This document shows positions 3,829-59,464 of a stretch of 64,000 nt of DNA, piece by piece. Source of the stretch: a virus (Duplodnaviria > Caudoviricetes); the IMG/VR virus record IMGVR_UViG_3300032237_000868, positions 25,157-89,156 of that record, one strand, 5' to 3'. A model generated the notes under the pieces. The model worked only from the letters and a program-made list of their open reading frames with translations, was not told the DNA's origin and ran no database searches. The position numbers were made by a program, and so were the translations under genes. Each line of letters opens with the position of its first letter. Positions within the stretch are counted from its first letter, which is position 1.

Positions 3829-4593
3829 TTATATTTCAAATGTTTCATTAAAAACGGATGGAGCATTATTATATGAAAGTTTCGATTCATCCAATATATT
3901 ATCTGTATATTGCCAATTCCAAAACAATTCATTGGGTGTATTGAATCCATAAAAATTTAATACTTGTTTTTGTGTTTTAACAACATTAACTCCATTCCAA
4001 TTTTGACCCACGGCAATAAAACCTGCGTCAATATCTTTAATAATATTACTTTCTCCTAATGTCGTGTGTCTATTTTCAAGCCAATTTAATCTTTCAATTA
4101 ATTTTTGATAATAACTATTGGCTTGTCCCCATCTAATACTTGCAAAAAATACAACGGCATCGCATTCAAAAAGTTCTTTACTAATTTTCCACAATTCATC
4201 ATTTTTATTATTATAACTACACCAACAACGATGATTTCCAGTTGGATTTTTTTCTTTGTCCTTTAATATAGATTCTTTAGTACCACAATGATTTCCTCCA
4301 AATTGTTTGTTGCTACTAACATTACCTTCACATGGTAAAATATTTAATTTTGGAATATCAATATGAACAATTTTATCACTGCCAAGACTTTCTTTTATTT
4401 TTAATGCCAATTTTGTGCTTTTTGGAACATCTTCTTTATGCTCTATCCATCTGTTACTTGTGGTTAGTAGCAAAGTTTTTTTCTTATTTTTTAAATAATC
4501 CATTGTTTTTAAATATTGACGAGCATAAACATCCATATCAATTTCACTTGATGGAATTTTTGTTTCGTATAGCAAATCGGATAGATTAATCAT
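3829..4593 (-). CDS. Flavodoxin-like NADPH-dependent FMN reductase / iron-sulfur flavoprotein family
   Basis: LLLTTSNR, NILPCEG, CWCS, ECDAVVFFASIRWGQANSYYQKLIERL. Confidence 0.8.
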   Translation of the reverse strand: MINLSDLLYETKIPSSEIDMDVYARQYLKTMDYLKNKKKTLLLTTSNRWIEHKEDVPKSTKLALKIKESLGSDKIVHIDIPKLNILPCEGNVSSNKQFGGNHCGTKESILKDKEKNPTGNHRCWCSYNNKNDELWKISKELFECDAVVFFASIRWGQANSYYQKLIERLNWLENRHTTLGESNIIKDIDAGFIAVGQNWNGVNVVKTQKQVLNFYGFNTPNELFWNWQYTDNILDESKLSYNNAPSVFNETFEI

Positions 4594-47034: not shown

Positions 47035-47143
47035 ACAAGATACAACTTATTTACAGTTTTGCTTCTGACCTGCATTTTTTTCATGGTCCGCAGACAAGAC
47101 ATTTCATTCCAATATGATTTTTATTTGTTGCTGTGTGTATCTT
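47035..47143 (-). ncRNA. ACAGCAA-family element
   Basis: AAGATACAC-ACAGCAA ... TTGTATCTTGT terminal helix. Confidence 0.6.
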
Positions 47144-48044
47144 AAAATCTATTGTAAAATTCTAAAAATTTATTTATTTCATTTTCTATAAATTTTTTAC
47201 CTGATTTAGTATTTATTGATTTCCAAGGTATTCGATATACTTTCCATGATTGTGACTTTAAATATTCATCTTTTAATTGATCGGATTTTTTTCTATCTTC
47301 AAGAAGATGTTGTTTGCCATCAATTTCCAATGCAATTCTCTTGGATTCTATCGCAAAATCAATAAAATATTTTCCGCAAGGTTCTTCGAACTTATATGAT
47401 ATATTATTGTTTGTCAATACTTTCATGAAAAATAATTCAGCATAAGATGGTTGATTTCTACTTTTCCAACCGGAATGGGTTCCTTCTATAATTCTTTTTA
47501 ATTGTGCTTGTCTGAGTTTTTCTTTATATTCTATACATGCATGTTGACATAATTTTGAACAATAAATAATTTTATTGGATTTTGGTTTAAATTGTTTTTG
47601 ACAAATTTTACAATTTTTGACAATTACTATTTGTTTTTTCTTTTTACGAATTGTGTTTAATCCTCGTTCTGATTGGTAATACAATTTTAATCCGCGTTTT
47701 ATTTTTTCTCTTTGTTCTGAACTAAGAGACGCAGCAAAAAATTTATTAGCGCATTTATGAGAACATGTTTTTTTCTCTCTCGGATGATTTTTTTCAGTCT
47801 CAAACAGCGACTGACATATCGGACATTCTTTTTTAATTTTTTGATATTTACATATATGATTTTTTAATCCAAAATGTGAAATATCGAGTTTAAATTCATA
47901 AATTTTTAATTTAACTTGATTTCTTGATTTTCCATTGTCACAGAAATTAAATTTACGACATATTTCTCCGGTTCCATTGCTTTCTTTTACAACTTGTTTG
48001 AATTTCTCTATATTTGACATTATTTCCGATTCAATCTTATTCAT
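47142..48044 (-). CDS. DUF559/Vsr-like homing endonuclease with CxxC repeats
   Basis: YFIDFAIESKRIALEIDGKQH...D..KD. Confidence 0.88.
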   Translation of the reverse strand: MNKIESEIMSNIEKFKQVVKESNGTGEICRKFNFCDNGKSRNQVKLKIYEFKLDISHFGLKNHICKYQKIKKECPICQSLFETEKNHPREKKTCSHKCANKFFAASLSSEQREKIKRGLKLYYQSERGLNTIRKKKKQIVIVKNCKICQKQFKPKSNKIIYCSKLCQHACIEYKEKLRQAQLKRIIEGTHSGWKSRNQPSYAELFFMKVLTNNNISYKFEEPCGKYFIDFAIESKRIALEIDGKQHLLEDRKKSDQLKDEYLKSQSWKVYRIPWKSINTKSGKKFIENEINKFLEFYNRF

Positions 48045-54750: not shown

Positions 54751-55473
54751 ATGAAACCGCTTTACACCCCAAACGAATTCAATGAAGCAAAATCTCGTAA
54801 TACGCTTCCTTTCGAATGTGAATATTGTCGTTCTACATTTTATAGCACGAAAAACGAAATTCAAAAATCTATTAAGAGACAAGAAGAAGGAAATCGTCGT
54901 CGTAACGATTTGAAATATTGCTCCAAAAAATGCAGTGGACTTTCAAAAATAACAGGATTGCATCTTCATTGTGAACAATGCAAAAAGACAATTTACAAAC
55001 AACGCCGAAACATTTCAAAAAACAGACATCATTTTTGTTCATCTTCATGCGCTGCTACATATAGCAACACACACAAAACAACTGGTTATCGTCGTTCCAA
55101 GCTTGAGATTTGGATCGAAGAACAACTCACCAAGAAATATCCAACCCTCCCAATTCGCTATAACAAAACTGATGTCATAAATGCGGAGTTGGACATATTC
55201 ATCCCCTCATTGAAACTGGCGTTTGAGTTGAATGGTATTTTTCATTATGAAGATATTTATGGGACACTCAATAAAATTCAAAAAAACGATTCAAAAAAAT
55301 TCCAAAAATGTATCGAATTAGGAATCGGATTGTGTGTAATCGATGTATCACATCAAAATCGATTCACTGAAAAATCCAGTGCACAGTTTTTGGATATTAT
55401 CTATAATATTATAGATCAAAAAATGGGGTGGTATATGGGTAACGATCCCATTCCGCAAGCTTCACAGGCTTGA
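54751..55473 (+). CDS. Vsr-like homing endonuclease with CxxC repeats, antisense to tRNA array
   Basis: ELDIFIPSLKLAFELNGIFHY; YCSKKC, FCSSSC. Confidence 0.85.
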   Translation: MKPLYTPNEFNEAKSRNTLPFECEYCRSTFYSTKNEIQKSIKRQEEGNRRRNDLKYCSKKCSGLSKITGLHLHCEQCKKTIYKQRRNISKNRHHFCSSSCAATYSNTHKTTGYRRSKLEIWIEEQLTKKYPTLPIRYNKTDVINAELDIFIPSLKLAFELNGIFHYEDIYGTLNKIQKNDSKKFQKCIELGIGLCVIDVSHQNRFTEKSSAQFLDIIYNIIDQKMGWYMGNDPIPQASQA

Positions 55474-55780: not shown

Positions 55781-55864
55781 TGGTAGGCGCGGTAGGATTT
55801 GAACCTGCAATTTCAGTTCCAATTACTACCTAGCGGTTTCGAAGACCGTGGAGACTACGCACCC
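55781..55864 (-). tRNA. D-armless tRNA-Arg(TCG)-like RNA
   Basis: Acceptor, only 8 nt before CGGT-CTTCGAA-ACCG, 24-nt post-anticodon region, normal T arm, CCA. Confidence 0.65.
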
Positions 55865-55872
55865 ATTGTAAA

Positions 55873-56181
55873 TTAATTTTTTACTATCTGAACACTTGGA
55901 TATATATTTCTTTCTGTTTGACTGCGTATCGTTTCAAAATATGAAGCCATATGATTCAGCACATTTTCGGCCATTGGTTCTAACCAATCATTCGGTTTAT
56001 ATTCTGTTACGCTTATTCCACCACGAACCGCTTTTAGGTTGCCTGATTCAAATTGTTTTTTTAGAAACGCCATCAATTCATTTTTTAAAACTCGTCGATG
56101 TTCTATTACAAAAATTTCATTCAATTGATTTTGTAGTGTTAAATTTCTATGTTTAATAAACGTTTCTTCAAAAAGATTCAT
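55873..56181 (-). CDS. Hypothetical protein
   Basis: 102 aa ORF with late-type motif upstream. Confidence 0.65.
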   Translation of the reverse strand: MNLFEETFIKHRNLTLQNQLNEIFVIEHRRVLKNELMAFLKKQFESGNLKAVRGGISVTEYKPNDWLEPMAENVLNHMASYFETIRSQTERNIYPSVQIVKN

Positions 56182-56334
56182 ATGTTAATAAATATTAATT
56201 GAGTTTGTAAAATACATATTAATTTTTTTTAAAATGGTTTGTTAGTAGGTATTAATTATAAATATTTTTTTTATTCGTCTATATATACAAATTTAATTAT
56301 AGCAAAACATTAAAAAATTTAACTATTCTTTTTT

Positions 56335-56411
56335 TGGTGCTTATGCTGAGATTTGAACTCAGAACTTTTCTTTCGTAGAGAAATATGATTATCCAATTTC
56401 ACCACACAAGC
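56335..56411 (-). tRNA. tRNA-Arg(ACG)
   Basis: TTTCT-CTACGAA-AGAAA, CCA. Confidence 0.88.
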
Positions 56412-56428
56412 ATGTATGTTTTTAAATT

Positions 56429-56507
56429 TGGCGAATCGGGTGGGAGTCGAACCCACATTAGTCCAGTTATGCACCAATCGCTTAGAAGGCGCGGCCAATA
56501 CCGATTC
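56429..56507 (-). tRNA. D-armless tRNA-Arg(TCT)-like RNA
   Basis: GAATCGG/CCGATTC-GCCA, CGC-CTTCTAA-GCG directly after a short linker, long post-anticodon region. Confidence 0.65.
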
Positions 56508-56519
56508 ATTTTTAAAATT

Positions 56520-56647
56520 ACGAGATGCATTTTTTACTTTTATACTCTACCATTGAGCTATCGCGGCATAACGAGCCGCGAGTGAGATTCGAACTCACAA
56601 CCTTTGATTTACATATCAATTAGTATATTTGTTGCTGTATACATCTC
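56520..56647 (-). ncRNA. Circularly permuted tRNA-like RNA 1 (ACAGCAA family)
   Basis: Order: outer helix-ACAGCAA-anticodon-like arm-T arm-TCGCGGC-loop-GCCGCGA-D arm-outer helix. Confidence 0.85.
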
Positions 56648-56725: not shown

Positions 56726-56732
56726 ATTAAAA

Positions 56733-56853
56733 ACTAGATACATTTTTCAGGGTTTTGCCATTAAACTATCGCGGCGTCAATAATGCCGCGAGTGGGATTC
56801 GAACACCACATCACTCTCTTCGTAGGAGAATTTTTTGTTGCTGTATGTATCTT
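56733..56853 (-). ncRNA. Circularly permuted tRNA-like RNA 2 (ACAGCAA family), ACG loop
   Basis: Same order as copy 1; AGATACAT/ATGTATCT; TTCTC-CTACGAA-GAGAG. Confidence 0.85.
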
Positions 56854-59138: not shown

Positions 59139-59369
59139 TCAGTCAAAACTAAAAATTAGATAATTTGATTTTCCTATTCGCAATAGTATATATTTTTCAA
59201 ATAGTAAATCAGATTTTTCTATGATTCTATTTTCCGTTGTTTTGATATTGTTGATGTATAAGCCGCCGCCTTTTAACAAACGCCGTGCTTCAGATTTACT
59301 AATATCATAACAATCCGAAAATAATGTAATTGTGTCTAATATTTCTAATGTTTCTAATGTCTCTTCCAT
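59139..59369 (-). CDS. Stand-alone S4 domain resembling the TyrRS C-terminus
   Basis: SKSEARRLLKGGGLYINN...DLLFEKYILLRIGKSNY; start moved to MEETLE. Confidence 0.85.
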   Translation of the reverse strand: MEETLETLEILDTITLFSDCYDISKSEARRLLKGGGLYINNIKTTENRIIEKSDLLFEKYILLRIGKSNYLIFSFD

Positions 59370-59375
59370 AAAGCA

Positions 59376-59464
59376 TGGTCGTAGATGGAGGAGTTGAACC
59401 ACTTGCCAGCCGCCCTATTTATTGATGGCAACTATTTTACAGACAGCCATAGGGAACATCTACG
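59376..59464 (-). tRNA. D-armless tRNA-Tyr(GTA)-like RNA
   Basis: CGTAGATG/CATCTACG-ACCA, GCTGT-CTGTAAA-ATAGT nested in CCCTAT/ATAGGG. Confidence 0.6.

What the first reader, a model, noticed from the sequence alone, without database searches (positions are those of the whole stretch)
55781..56507. Two D-armless Arg tRNA-like genes with the D-loop signature displaced after the anticodon arm
Seen: both Arg(TCG) and Arg(TCT) have only 6-8 nt between acceptor and anticodon stem, then 21-24 nt containing AAYTGGA before a normal T arm and CCA. The short 5' linker can pair with the end of that segment (AGTCTCC/GGAACT; ATTGGCC/GGACTAAT), which nests the anticodon hairpin inside a D-like arm. Two dissimilar sequences sharing the design argues against decay. 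Inference: an alternative fold that may still make the elbow, acting as a real tRNA or as a decoy for anticodon nucleases.
Basis: partly seen in the sequence, partly recalled or inferred. Interest (0 to 1): 0.75.

Follow-up and report, generated by a model that had tools for sequence, protein, structure and literature searches.

The report
Two rewired phage arginine tRNA genes
The two odd genes are very probably working arginine tRNAs of a giant phage in which half of the D stem and the whole D loop sit after the anticodon arm instead of before it. Hundreds of phages share this non-cloverleaf layout, gene finders miss it, and I found no paper that describes it.

Summary
Window 55781-55864 (minus, anticodon UCG, "c1") and 56429-56507 (minus, UCU, "c2") have a 7-bp acceptor stem, an anticodon arm, a T arm and an encoded CCA. 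There is no D hairpin, and the D-loop sequence UAAYUGGA lies after the anticodon arm.

They are not isolated oddities. One pattern scan found at least 120 viral contigs with the same design, giving 148 distinct sequences. Cultured phages carry it too (Felix O1-like, phi92-like, Klebsiella, Streptomyces, Alishewanella).

Covariation shows the real fold. The 5' linker pairs with the 3 nt just before UAAYUGGA (helix P2), so the anticodon hairpin is nested in a split D stem. c1's class has a second helix, P1 (AGU/ACU).

The tertiary R15-Y48 pair covaries (AU 111, GC 18, other 1). U8, A9, G18 and G19 are kept. A20, the main ArgRS determinant, goes with Arg anticodons.

c2 is the only gene in the record that can read AGA, which is 33% of Arg codons.

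Best reading: functional tRNA-Arg with a permuted D/anticodon domain (about 0.78). Expression and charging are untested.

This scan has found the same family before on other phage DNA.

The parts
55781..55864 (-). c1: rewired tRNA-Arg(UCG) gene, class B (8-nt linker, helices P1 + P2), CCA encoded
   Evidence: Sequence. Family model R2, built without window sequences, gives 59.5 bits, E 8e-14. This is the low end of the family range. It has a G1.U72 pair and A27.C43 and C50.A64 mismatches.
55858..55864 (-). c1 acceptor 5' strand GGGUGCG, pairs with 55785-55791
   Evidence: Seven pairs including two G.U. The acceptor columns are 98.4% paired across the family, with changes on both sides in all 7 pairs.
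55854..55856 (-). c1 P1 5' strand A9 G10 U11, pairs with ACU at 55815-55817
   Evidence: P1 columns in class B: GC 21/AU 8/CG 1/UA 1 and CG 17/UA 9/AU 3/UG 2.
55850..55853 (-). c1 P2 5' strand CUCC, pairs with GG(U)AG at 55826-55830
   Evidence: The two family-invariant P2 pairs are C-G and U-A in c1. The third position is C.U in the simple register, or C-G plus C-G if the U is bulged.
55833..55849 (-). c1 anticodon arm, loop CUUCGAA, anticodon UCG at 55840-55842
   Evidence: Four Watson-Crick pairs plus A27.C43.
55818..55825 (-). c1 displaced D-loop motif UAAUUGGA (U13 A14 A15 U16 U17 G18 G19 A20)
   Evidence: Same loop sequence as the phage's ordinary tRNA-Arg(ACG), AAUUGGA. A15 goes with U48 at 55809.
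55809..55817 (-). c1 P1 3' strand ACU followed by GAAAUU, ending in U48
   Evidence: The class B consensus is GAAAAU (21 of 36). c1 has GAAAUU.
55792..55808 (-). c1 T arm GCAGG-UUCAAAU-CCUAC
   Evidence: T-stem columns are 98.9% paired in the family.
56429..56507 (-). c2: rewired tRNA-Arg(UCU) gene, class A (7-nt linker, P2 only), CCA encoded
   Evidence: Sequence. R2 gives 71.9 bits, E 3e-17. It is 90.5% identical over nt 7-69 to a gene of Alishewanella phage Slicko01.
56494..56497 (-). c2 P2 5' strand UGGC, pairs with GU(G)CA at 56470-56474
   Evidence: 19 family members have xUGGC paired with G(U/C)GCA. The G.U pair switches to G-C in 2 of them, which fits a 4-bp helix with a bulged G. U-A and G-C are the two family-invariant pairs.
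56477..56493 (-). c2 anticodon arm, loop CUUCUAA, anticodon UCU at 56484-56486
   Evidence: Only 3 Watson-Crick pairs in the standard register. The outer two are mismatched, as in its closest relatives. A register with A42 and U43 bulged gives two more pairs.
56462..56469 (-). c2 displaced D-loop motif UAACUGGA
   Evidence: A15 goes with U48 at 56457.
56440..56456 (-). c2 T arm GUGGG-UUCGACU-CCCAC
56335..56411 (-). Ordinary cloverleaf tRNA-Arg(ACG) lying between c2 and c1; the only ARAGORN tRNA-Arg in the 89-kb record

Best explanation
c1 and c2 are members of a large, phage-specific family of arginine tRNAs with a rewired core.

The gene order is: acceptor 5' strand, U8 A9, one D-stem strand, anticodon arm, spacer, other D-stem strand, D loop (U-A14-A15-Y-U-G18-G19-A20), a short linker ending in A-U48, T arm, acceptor 3' strand, CCA. 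Compared with the cloverleaf, the block made of the D-stem 5' strand plus D loop has changed places with the block made of the D-stem 3' strand plus anticodon arm. This is an internal circular permutation.

Shown here: the two separated strands pair (P2). Class B genes such as c1 have an extra 3-bp helix (P1). The 15-48 tertiary pair covaries. The anticodons are Arg anticodons wherever the D loop carries A20.

Inferred: the RNA still folds into the L shape, with U8-A14, R15-Y48, G18-Psi55 and G19-C56. It is cut out of the tRNA-array transcript by the host's usual enzymes and charged by host ArgRS through A20, C35, U/G36 and A/G73. It then decodes AGA/AGG (c2) and CGA/CGG (c1) for an AT-rich phage.

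c2 is the more secure of the two. c1 has several mismatches and is partly redundant with the ACG tRNA.
For: (1) Family size. This gave 148 distinct sequences.

(2) Secondary structure. 94.4% of cells are paired against 60.9% after shuffling, and the covariation score is 0.807 against 0.204 shuffled and 0.09-0.13 for slid registers. The P2 pairs read CG 109/UA 25/GC 11/AU 2/other 1 and GC 73/CG 36/UA 21/AU 16/other 2. An analysis anchored on fixed offsets, not fitted to any structure, gives the same result.

(3) Tertiary structure. Position 15 against the base just before the T stem reads AU 111, GC 18, other 1. G15-C48 turns up inside several different subfamilies and in both classes. U8 is invariant, A9 is present in 147 of 148, and A-U before the T stem in 107 of 111 class A genes. 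None of these positions was part of the search pattern.

(4) Identity. Anticodons found with the A20 motif are UCU 105, UCG 21, ACG 14, CCU 6, GCG 1 and UAU 1. Of the 8 members with Ile, Lys or Met anticodons, 6 have U20. A20, C35, position 36 and A/G73 define bacterial Arg identity (PMC9976931).

(5) Need. The only ordinary tRNA-Arg in the 89-kb record is ACG. AGA is 33% of Arg codons, CGA 13% and CGG 3.7%.

(6) Context. The genes sit in tRNA arrays, with a median of 7 other tRNAs per locus. An ordinary tRNA with the same anticodon is present in only 10 of 146 loci.

(7) Independent membership. c2 scores 71.9 bits and c1 59.5 bits with a model that excludes them.
Against: There is no expression, processing or charging data.

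Nearest-neighbour energies favour other folds: c1 is -13.5 kcal/mol for the family fold against -23.3 for the MFE, and c2 is -16.9 to -20.7 against -26.3.

c2's anticodon stem has only three Watson-Crick pairs in the standard register.

c1 has mismatches in the anticodon stem, T stem and P2, and it scores at the low end of the family.

In class B it is unclear how P1 and the U8-A14 and 15-48 contacts can coexist.

Most A20 counts are biased, because A20 was part of the search pattern.
Confidence: 0.78

Rival explanations
1. The RNAs are tRNA mimics or decoys. They are made and folded like a tRNA but are not used in translation. They would soak up an anticodon nuclease or another tRNA-binding defence or host factor that targets tRNA-Arg.
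For: The anticodon loop is strictly conserved: C32 U33 ... A37 A38 in 142 of 148. The same island holds other tRNA-like RNAs of odd topology. Phage tRNAs that counter tRNA-cleaving defences are known (PMC11464382, listed).
Against: A decoy would not need A20 tied to Arg anticodons, a 7-bp covarying acceptor stem, an A/G discriminator in 78% of members or an encoded CCA. A decoy would be expected beside an ordinary tRNA with the same anticodon, but 136 of 146 loci lack one. c2 fills the only gap for AGA.
Confidence: 0.08
2. c1 alone is a decaying copy of a once-functional family member, while c2 works.
For: c1 has A27.C43, C50.A64, an irregular P2 and GAAAUU in place of GAAAAU. It scores 59.5-62 bits where most pattern-found members score 63-87. 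CGA can be read by the ACG (inosine) tRNA, and CGG is only 3.7% of Arg codons. It has no BLAST relative in cultured phages.
Against: All helices can still form, the motif, U48 and CCA are intact, and its score is 30 bits above any ordinary tRNA in the window. Other members with variant motifs score as low or lower.
Confidence: 0.07
3. These are D-armless tRNAs of the mitochondrial kind with a long, self-contained variable arm. The segment after the anticodon arm folds on itself, and the 5' linker stays single-stranded.
For: cmscan aligns c1 with a deleted D arm and a 20-nt insertion in the variable region, and aligns c2 to tRNA-Sec with a long variable arm. One cultured copy is annotated tRNA-Ser.
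Against: The linker covaries with the 3 nt before the motif, with 0-2 exceptions in 130-148 sequences at two positions. G18, G19 and A14, and the R15-Y48 covariation, are the signature of a D loop and not of a variable arm.
Confidence: 0.03
4. The fold is exactly. The linker pairs with GGA and the segment after the motif (AGUCUCC/GGAACU and AUUGGCC/GGACUAAU).
For: c2's single-sequence MFE uses nearly this pairing. The AGU/ACU part of c1 is real.
Against: Across the family these pairs are at chance: 52.6% paired against 49.6% shuffled, and the inner pairs are unpaired in 94-111 of 148 sequences. G18 and G19 are invariant while their proposed partners vary.
Confidence: 0.03
5. The extra segment is an intron or insertion, and removing it gives a standard tRNA.
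For: None beyond the extra length.
Against: The gene has one anticodon arm, and it lies upstream of the only D loop. No deletion of a contiguous piece can restore the order D arm then anticodon arm. The segment is 20-24 nt, has no ribozyme match, and is the most conserved part of the gene.
Confidence: 0.01

Closest known systems
Ordinary bacterial and phage tRNA-Arg (class I cloverleaf, Rfam RF00005), e.g. this phage's own tRNA-Arg(ACG) at 56335-56411
   Same: 7-bp acceptor stem, U8, anticodon loop C-U-NNN-A-A, the D-loop sequence AAUUGGA with A20, Y48, the T arm with UUCRANY, a discriminator and CCA. The presumed function is also the same.
   Different: The order of the parts. The D loop and one D-stem strand follow the anticodon arm, so the D stem forms by long-range pairing around the anticodon hairpin. 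Scores fall below the RF00005 cut-off, and ARAGORN misses the genes.
Metazoan mitochondrial D-armless tRNAs such as mt-tRNA-Ser(AGY), as reviewed in PMC7609411 and PMC9976931
   Same: No D hairpin between the acceptor and anticodon stems, and a short 5' connector.
   Different: The mitochondrial forms have lost the D loop and the conserved elbow contacts. Here the D loop, G18, G19, the 15-48 pair and a D-stem equivalent are all kept and merely relocated.
Circularly permuted tRNA genes of the red alga Cyanidioschyzon merolae (from my own knowledge, not checked here)
   Same: A tRNA whose parts are in a permuted order in the DNA.
   Different: In the alga the whole gene is permuted at the acceptor ends, and processing restores a normal cloverleaf RNA. 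Here the ends are normal and the permutation is internal, so it should persist in the mature RNA.
tRNA-Sec (Rfam RF01852)
   Same: Best Rfam match of c2 (30.1 bits). A long D stem and extra nucleotides between the anticodon and T arms.
   Different: The score is under the 47-bit cut-off. The anticodon is UCU and not UCA, and the acceptor and T stems are 7/5 and not 8/5 or 9/4.
tRNA-like structures of plant viruses (e.g. the TYMV TLS) and bacterial YrlA (RF02553)
   Same: RNAs that reach a tRNA-like shape with a strand connectivity unlike the cloverleaf.
   Different: Those are mimics with other roles (a 3' UTR; a Ro-bound RNA) and lack a decoding anticodon arm in a tRNA array. The YrlA-like hit in this window belongs to the neighbouring element at 56517-56619, not to c1 or c2.

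Membership tests
Canonical tRNA (Rfam RF00005 / cloverleaf) | 7-bp acceptor stem with discriminator and CCA end | tested here: met
   c1 has 7 pairs (two of them G.U) and c2 has 7 Watson-Crick pairs. CCA is encoded in both.
Canonical tRNA (Rfam RF00005 / cloverleaf) | D hairpin (stem 10-13/22-25 plus loop) between position 9 and the anticodon arm | tested here: not met
   Only 8 nt (c1) or 7 nt (c2) lie between the acceptor and anticodon stems.
Canonical tRNA (Rfam RF00005 / cloverleaf) | Score at or above the RF00005 gathering threshold (29 bits), or detection by ARAGORN | tested here: not met
   c1 scores 27.2 bits. c2 has no RF00005 match at E<=10. ARAGORN calls neither.
Canonical tRNA (Rfam RF00005 / cloverleaf) | Anticodon arm with a 7-nt loop and U33, and a T arm with UUCRANY | tested here: met
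   Loops are CUUCGAA and CUUCUAA. T loops are UUCAAAU and UUCGACU. c2's stem has only 3 Watson-Crick pairs.
Canonical tRNA (Rfam RF00005 / cloverleaf) | Aminoacylation and use on the ribosome | not testable with these tools
   No RNA or biochemical data.
Rewired phage tRNA-Arg family (defined in this scan; models R1 and R2) | U8 A9 linker of 7-8 nt whose nt 11-13 (class A) or 12-14 (class B) pair with the 3 nt before the D-loop motif (P2) | tested here: met
   c2 has U-A and G-C, plus G.U and C-G if a G is bulged. c1 has C-G and U-A, plus two C-G if a U is bulged.
Rewired phage tRNA-Arg family (defined in this scan; models R1 and R2) | D-loop motif U-A-R-Y-U-G-G-A after the anticodon arm, with R15 matched by Y48 just before the T stem | tested here: met
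   c1 has UAAUUGGA ... U48 and c2 has UAACUGGA ... U48. Family counts are AU 111, GC 18, other 1.
Rewired phage tRNA-Arg family (defined in this scan; models R1 and R2) | High score with a covariance model built without the query | tested here: met
   With R2, c2 scores 71.9 bits and c1 59.5 bits. Ordinary tRNAs score 29.4 bits or less.
Rewired phage tRNA-Arg family (defined in this scan; models R1 and R2) | Arg anticodon together with A20 | tested here: met
   UCG and UCU, both with GGA. In the family, 123 of 123 Arg anticodons have A20 (biased by the search pattern).
Mitochondrial-type D-armless tRNA | Loss of the D loop and of the G18/G19-T-loop elbow contacts | tested here: not met
   G18, G19, A14 and R15 are retained, and 15-48 covaries.
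tRNA-Sec (RF01852) | Anticodon UCA, 8/5 or 9/4 acceptor/T helices, and a score of at least 47 bits | tested here: not met
   Anticodon UCU, 7/5 helices, 30.1 bits.

The most novel reading that the evidence does not exclude
The rewired layout is a second natural solution to the tRNA fold that works fully on the ribosome, and it is kept in phages because it protects them. With the D arm built from two distant strands, the tRNA would escape a host nuclease, modification dependence or defence system that recognises the ordinary D arm or core of tRNA-Arg, while staying chargeable by host ArgRS through A20. The two classes (with and without helix P1) found together in one phage would then be two grades of the same escape design.
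Probability: 0.2. Interest if true: 0.9.

Novelty: new variant of a known kind. Interest (0 to 1): 0.8.

Why it matters
The cloverleaf is treated as universal outside a few organelles. A large family of cytoplasmic-type tRNAs with a different strand order would change that in three ways.

- It would show that only the three-dimensional core is constrained, not the connectivity. The family keeps the conserved core nucleotides of the L shape (U8, A14, G18, G19) and shows covariation of the 15-48 pair.
- It would give structural biologists and tRNA engineers a natural permuted scaffold.
- It would mean that phage tRNA inventories are systematically undercounted. ARAGORN overlapped 9 of 146 copies, and most cultured-phage records leave the gene blank or mislabel it.

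The undercount hits exactly the tRNA, Arg-UCU, that AT-rich phages need most. This affects codon-usage and host-range arguments that rely on phage tRNA sets.

Cultured carriers on E. coli K-12 and other laboratory hosts make the question directly testable.

Tried and rejected

2. Rfam at gathering thresholds finds no family for either gene. At E<=10 there are only sub-threshold tRNA and tRNA-Sec matches.

4. The intron reading is rejected by gene order.

5. A strict "Arg-only topology" claim is softened. With the A20 motif, the scans for other anticodons gave only Arg anticodons plus one UAU. The covariance model, however, found the same topology with Ile, Lys and Met anticodons and U20.

6. 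Single-sequence folding does not reproduce the family fold, so I did not use it as support.

7. A helix between N10 and the linker after the motif in class A shows no covariation.

8. BLAST of c1 against cultured phages gives no match.

9. Eight literature searches and four papers read turned up no description of this layout. The library lacks most subscription journals, so absence is not proof.

10. A TROVE/Rsr gene that might go with the neighbouring YrlA-like element was not found in the 89-kb record.

11. No RNA 3D modelling tool was available, so the L-shape is inferred from conserved and covarying tertiary partners only.
Full report
**What is there.** The window is part of an 89-kb IMG/VR virus record judged about 31% complete, so it comes from a phage of roughly 290 kb. 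It is about 31-35% G+C. The minus strand between 45.6 and 60.1 kb carries an array of 24 ARAGORN tRNAs plus a tmRNA.

The two flagged genes lie in that array and are read on the minus strand.
- c1 (55864->55781) lies 11 nt upstream of tRNA-Glu.
- c2 (56507->56429) lies 17 nt upstream of the ordinary tRNA-Arg(ACG).

Both have a 7-bp acceptor stem, a linker of 8 nt (c1) or 7 nt (c2) that starts with U-A, and an anticodon arm with loop CUUCGAA (UCG) or CUUCUAA (UCU). A segment of 24 nt (c1) or 20 nt (c2) follows that contains UAAUUGGA or UAACUGGA, then a textbook T arm, the acceptor 3' strand, a discriminator (A or G) and CCA.

The motif matches the D loop of the phage's ordinary tRNA-Arg(ACG), which reads AAUUGGA. 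ARAGORN calls neither gene. Rfam's tRNA model gives c1 27.2 bits (cut-off 29), and c2 matches only tRNA-Sec at 30.1 bits (cut-off 47).

**It is a family, not an accident.** I scanned for an Arg anticodon loop, then AAYTGGA 8-20 nt later, then a T loop 4-20 nt after that. An ordinary tRNA cannot match this pattern. It hit only 18 contigs, all from metagenome-assembled genomes, among 185,579 species genomes. After de-duplication and added scans I had 148 distinct sequences.

Close relatives of one subfamily occur in 268 records of cultured phages. These include Felixounavirus, phi92-like Justusliebigvirus, PBECO4-like jumbo phages, Klebsiella KB57/KNP2-type and T5-like phages, and Serratia and Streptomyces phages. 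The gene is almost always unannotated, or labelled "tRNA-OTHER Nd_NNN".

c2 itself is 90.5% identical over nt 7-69 to a gene of Alishewanella phage Slicko01 that is annotated "tRNA-Ser". It also has relatives in a Pseudomonas phage and in Streptomyces phages. c1 has no BLAST match among cultured phages.

ARAGORN overlaps only 9 of 146 copies, mostly with the wrong ends or isotype.

**The fold.** I first measured pairing with positions fixed by anchors (distance from the acceptor stem, distance from the motif), so nothing was fitted to a structure.
- In the 111 genes with a 7-nt linker (class A), linker nt 11 pairs with the base just before the motif in 100% of cases (CG 74, UA 24, GC 11, AU 2).
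- Linker nt 12 pairs with the next base in 99% (GC 49, CG 31, UA 19, AU 11).
- Shuffled controls give 65% and 41%, and slid registers fail.

On a MAFFT alignment of all 148 sequences the full structure is 94.4% paired against 60.9% after shuffling. The covariation score is 0.807 against 0.204 shuffled and 0.09-0.13 for slid partners. I call this helix P2.

The 36 genes with an 8-nt linker (class B, which includes c1) have a second helix, P1. It joins nt 9-11 to the three bases right after the motif (GC 21/AU 8/CG 1/UA 1 and CG 17/UA 9/AU 3/UG 2) and is followed by GAAAAU.

The c2 helix ATTGGCC/GGACTAAT is at chance across the family (52.6% against 49.6%). G18 and G19 are invariant while their supposed partners vary.

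c2 belongs to a 19-member subgroup, xUGGC paired with G(U/C)GCA, in which P2 is best read as 4 bp with a bulged G. c1's P2 is C-G and U-A, plus two C-G pairs if one U is bulged.

**Tertiary core.** Several conserved positions were not part of any search pattern:
- U8 is invariant.
- A9 is present in 147 of 148 sequences.
- A-U immediately precedes the T stem in 107 of 111 class A genes.

I then scanned separately for genes with G in place of A at motif position 3 (position 15). In those, the base before the T stem is C in 16 of 17 cases, while all 140 A15 genes have U. On a model-based alignment the pair reads AU 111, GC 18, other 1.

The G-C state occurs in both classes and inside several subfamilies that otherwise carry A-U. 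Examples are ...UCGA-U against ...UCGA-C, GUA-U against GUA-C, and GCUGAAAA-U against GCUGAAAA-C. This is the R15-Y48 Levitt pair of ordinary tRNA (PMC10424219).

Together with U8, A14, G18, G19 and an intact T loop, this is good evidence that the relocated segment takes the place of the normal D loop and that the L shape is kept. The geometry makes sense for class A. The linker enters the D-stem helix where strand 22-25 normally runs and continues straight into the anticodon stem. The strand after the anticodon arm plays the role of 10-13 and runs into A14-A20 in the normal direction. The last linker plays the role of the variable loop and ends in Y48. This geometric reading is my inference. 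No RNA 3D tool was available.

**Identity and use.** With the A20-bearing motif, the anticodons are UCU 105, UCG 21, ACG 14, CCU 6, GCG 1 and a single UAU. The covariance model also found the same topology with Ile (GAU, UAU), Lys (CUU) and CAU anticodons. Six of those eight have U20 and not A20.

A20, C35, position 36 and A/G73 are the bacterial arginine identity set, with A20 the strongest determinant for E. coli ArgRS (PMC9976931). Discriminators in the family are A or G in 78% of members. This link between A20 and the Arg anticodons is what selection for charging by ArgRS would produce. Most of the Arg counts are biased, though, because A20 was in the search pattern.

In this phage the only ordinary tRNA-Arg in the whole record is ACG. 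In ORFs of 150 aa or more, AGA makes up 33% of Arg codons, CGA 13% and CGG 3.7%. c2 is therefore the only gene able to read the phage's second most used Arg codon, and c1 covers CGG.

Across the family the genes sit in tRNA arrays (median 7 other tRNAs per locus). An ordinary tRNA with the same anticodon is present in only 10 of 146 fetched loci.

**Membership of c1 and c2.** A model built only from other phages' copies scores c2 at 71.9 bits and c1 at 59.5 bits. The best ordinary tRNA in the window scores 29.4 bits. c1 is at the low end of the family range. It has A27.C43, C50.A64, an irregular P2 and GAAAUU in place of GAAAAU. I therefore rate c1's function lower than c2's.

**What argues against.** Nothing here shows that the RNAs are made, trimmed or charged. 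Nearest-neighbour energies favour other folds for both genes. c2's anticodon stem is weak in the standard register. For class B I cannot explain how P1 coexists with the U8-A14 and 15-48 contacts.

**Rivals.**
- A decoy role is possible, but it does not explain the coupling of A20 with Arg anticodons, the covarying acceptor stem and CCA, or the missing ordinary isoacceptor.
- Decay is excluded for the family and remains a minor possibility for c1.
- A mitochondrial-style D-armless tRNA with an independent variable arm is contradicted by P2 and by the 15-48 covariation.
- An intron is excluded by gene order.

**Comparison with what is known, and novelty.** The closest relatives are ordinary tRNA-Arg genes. 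The parts are the same but their order differs, and two defining tests of the cloverleaf family fail (D hairpin, RF00005 score). Mitochondrial D-armless tRNAs, tRNA-Sec, permuted algal tRNA genes and viral tRNA-like structures each share one aspect but differ in defining ways. Eight full-text searches and four papers read gave no description of this layout.

This scan has met the same family before on other phage DNA, in notes on Felix O1-like, T4-like, soil, freshwater and giant phages. I reached the reading independently before seeing those notes, and my tests agree with them.

As far as those summaries show, the following points are added here:
- the split into two architectural classes that coexist in one phage;
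- the quantified Levitt-pair covariation;
- the A20/U20 split by anticodon;

I rate this a new variant of a known kind and of high interest, pending the simple wet-lab tests listed under next steps.

Noticed in passing
window 59376-59464 (minus): A Tyr(GUA) RNA appears to use the same topology. The 5' linker CCCUAU can pair with AUAGGG, which lies after the anticodon arm. A GG-containing segment, an imperfect T arm and an acceptor stem follow. It scores only 11.7 bits with the Arg model.
   Followed up: partly
window 56517-56619 and about 56730-56853 (minus): These are tRNA-like modules in the order T arm, acceptor stem closed by a loop, D arm. The first is a weak YrlA (Y RNA-like) match of 30.1 bits against a cut-off of 69. 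Weak YrlA hits also ring in 13 of 14 control genomes. No TROVE/Rsr gene is present in the 89-kb record.
   Followed up: partly
L028:8934-9010, L106:11003-11080, L049:4321-4397, L099:2238-2314, L110:12513-12594, L083:3894-3971, L041:4010-4090 and 4104-4183: The same rewired topology occurs with non-Arg anticodons (Ile GAU/UAU, Lys CUU, CAU). Six of the eight have U20 and not A20.
   Followed up: partly
L287:1726-1802: A family member with the Arg-type A20 motif but anticodon UAU, one base away from UCU. This could be a pseudogene or a change of meaning.
   Followed up: no
L044:5533-5614: A family member with an 8-nt anticodon loop, UGUUCUAA.
   Followed up: no
L320:395-473 (Alishewanella phage Slicko01) and L294:1499-1580 (Escherichia phage REP8): Public records mislabel these genes. 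The first is annotated 'tRNA-Ser' although its anticodon is UCU, and the second is 'tRNA-OTHER Nd_NNN'. Most other cultured-phage records leave the gene blank.
   Followed up: yes
L017:7347-7440, L023:6917-7007, L008:7758-7848, L019:448-533 and others: Phage arrays also hold tRNAs for Ile(UAU), Lys, Met and Thr that have a normal D arm but an unusually long variable arm, 83-94 nt in total.
   Followed up: no
window 59139-59402 (minus): An 87-aa ORF matches only the C-terminal S4-like domain of tyrosyl-tRNA synthetase (PF22421, E 1e-8). It lies between the odd Tyr RNA and the ordinary tRNA-Tyr.
   Followed up: no
window 47142-48044 (minus) and 54751-55473 (plus): Endonuclease-like or zinc-finger ORFs (DUF559/Vsr-like; zf-FCS) are interspersed in the tRNA island.
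   Followed up: no
G000 ends (outside and at the edge of the window): The 89,156-bp record has an exact 123-bp terminal inverted repeat.
   Followed up: no
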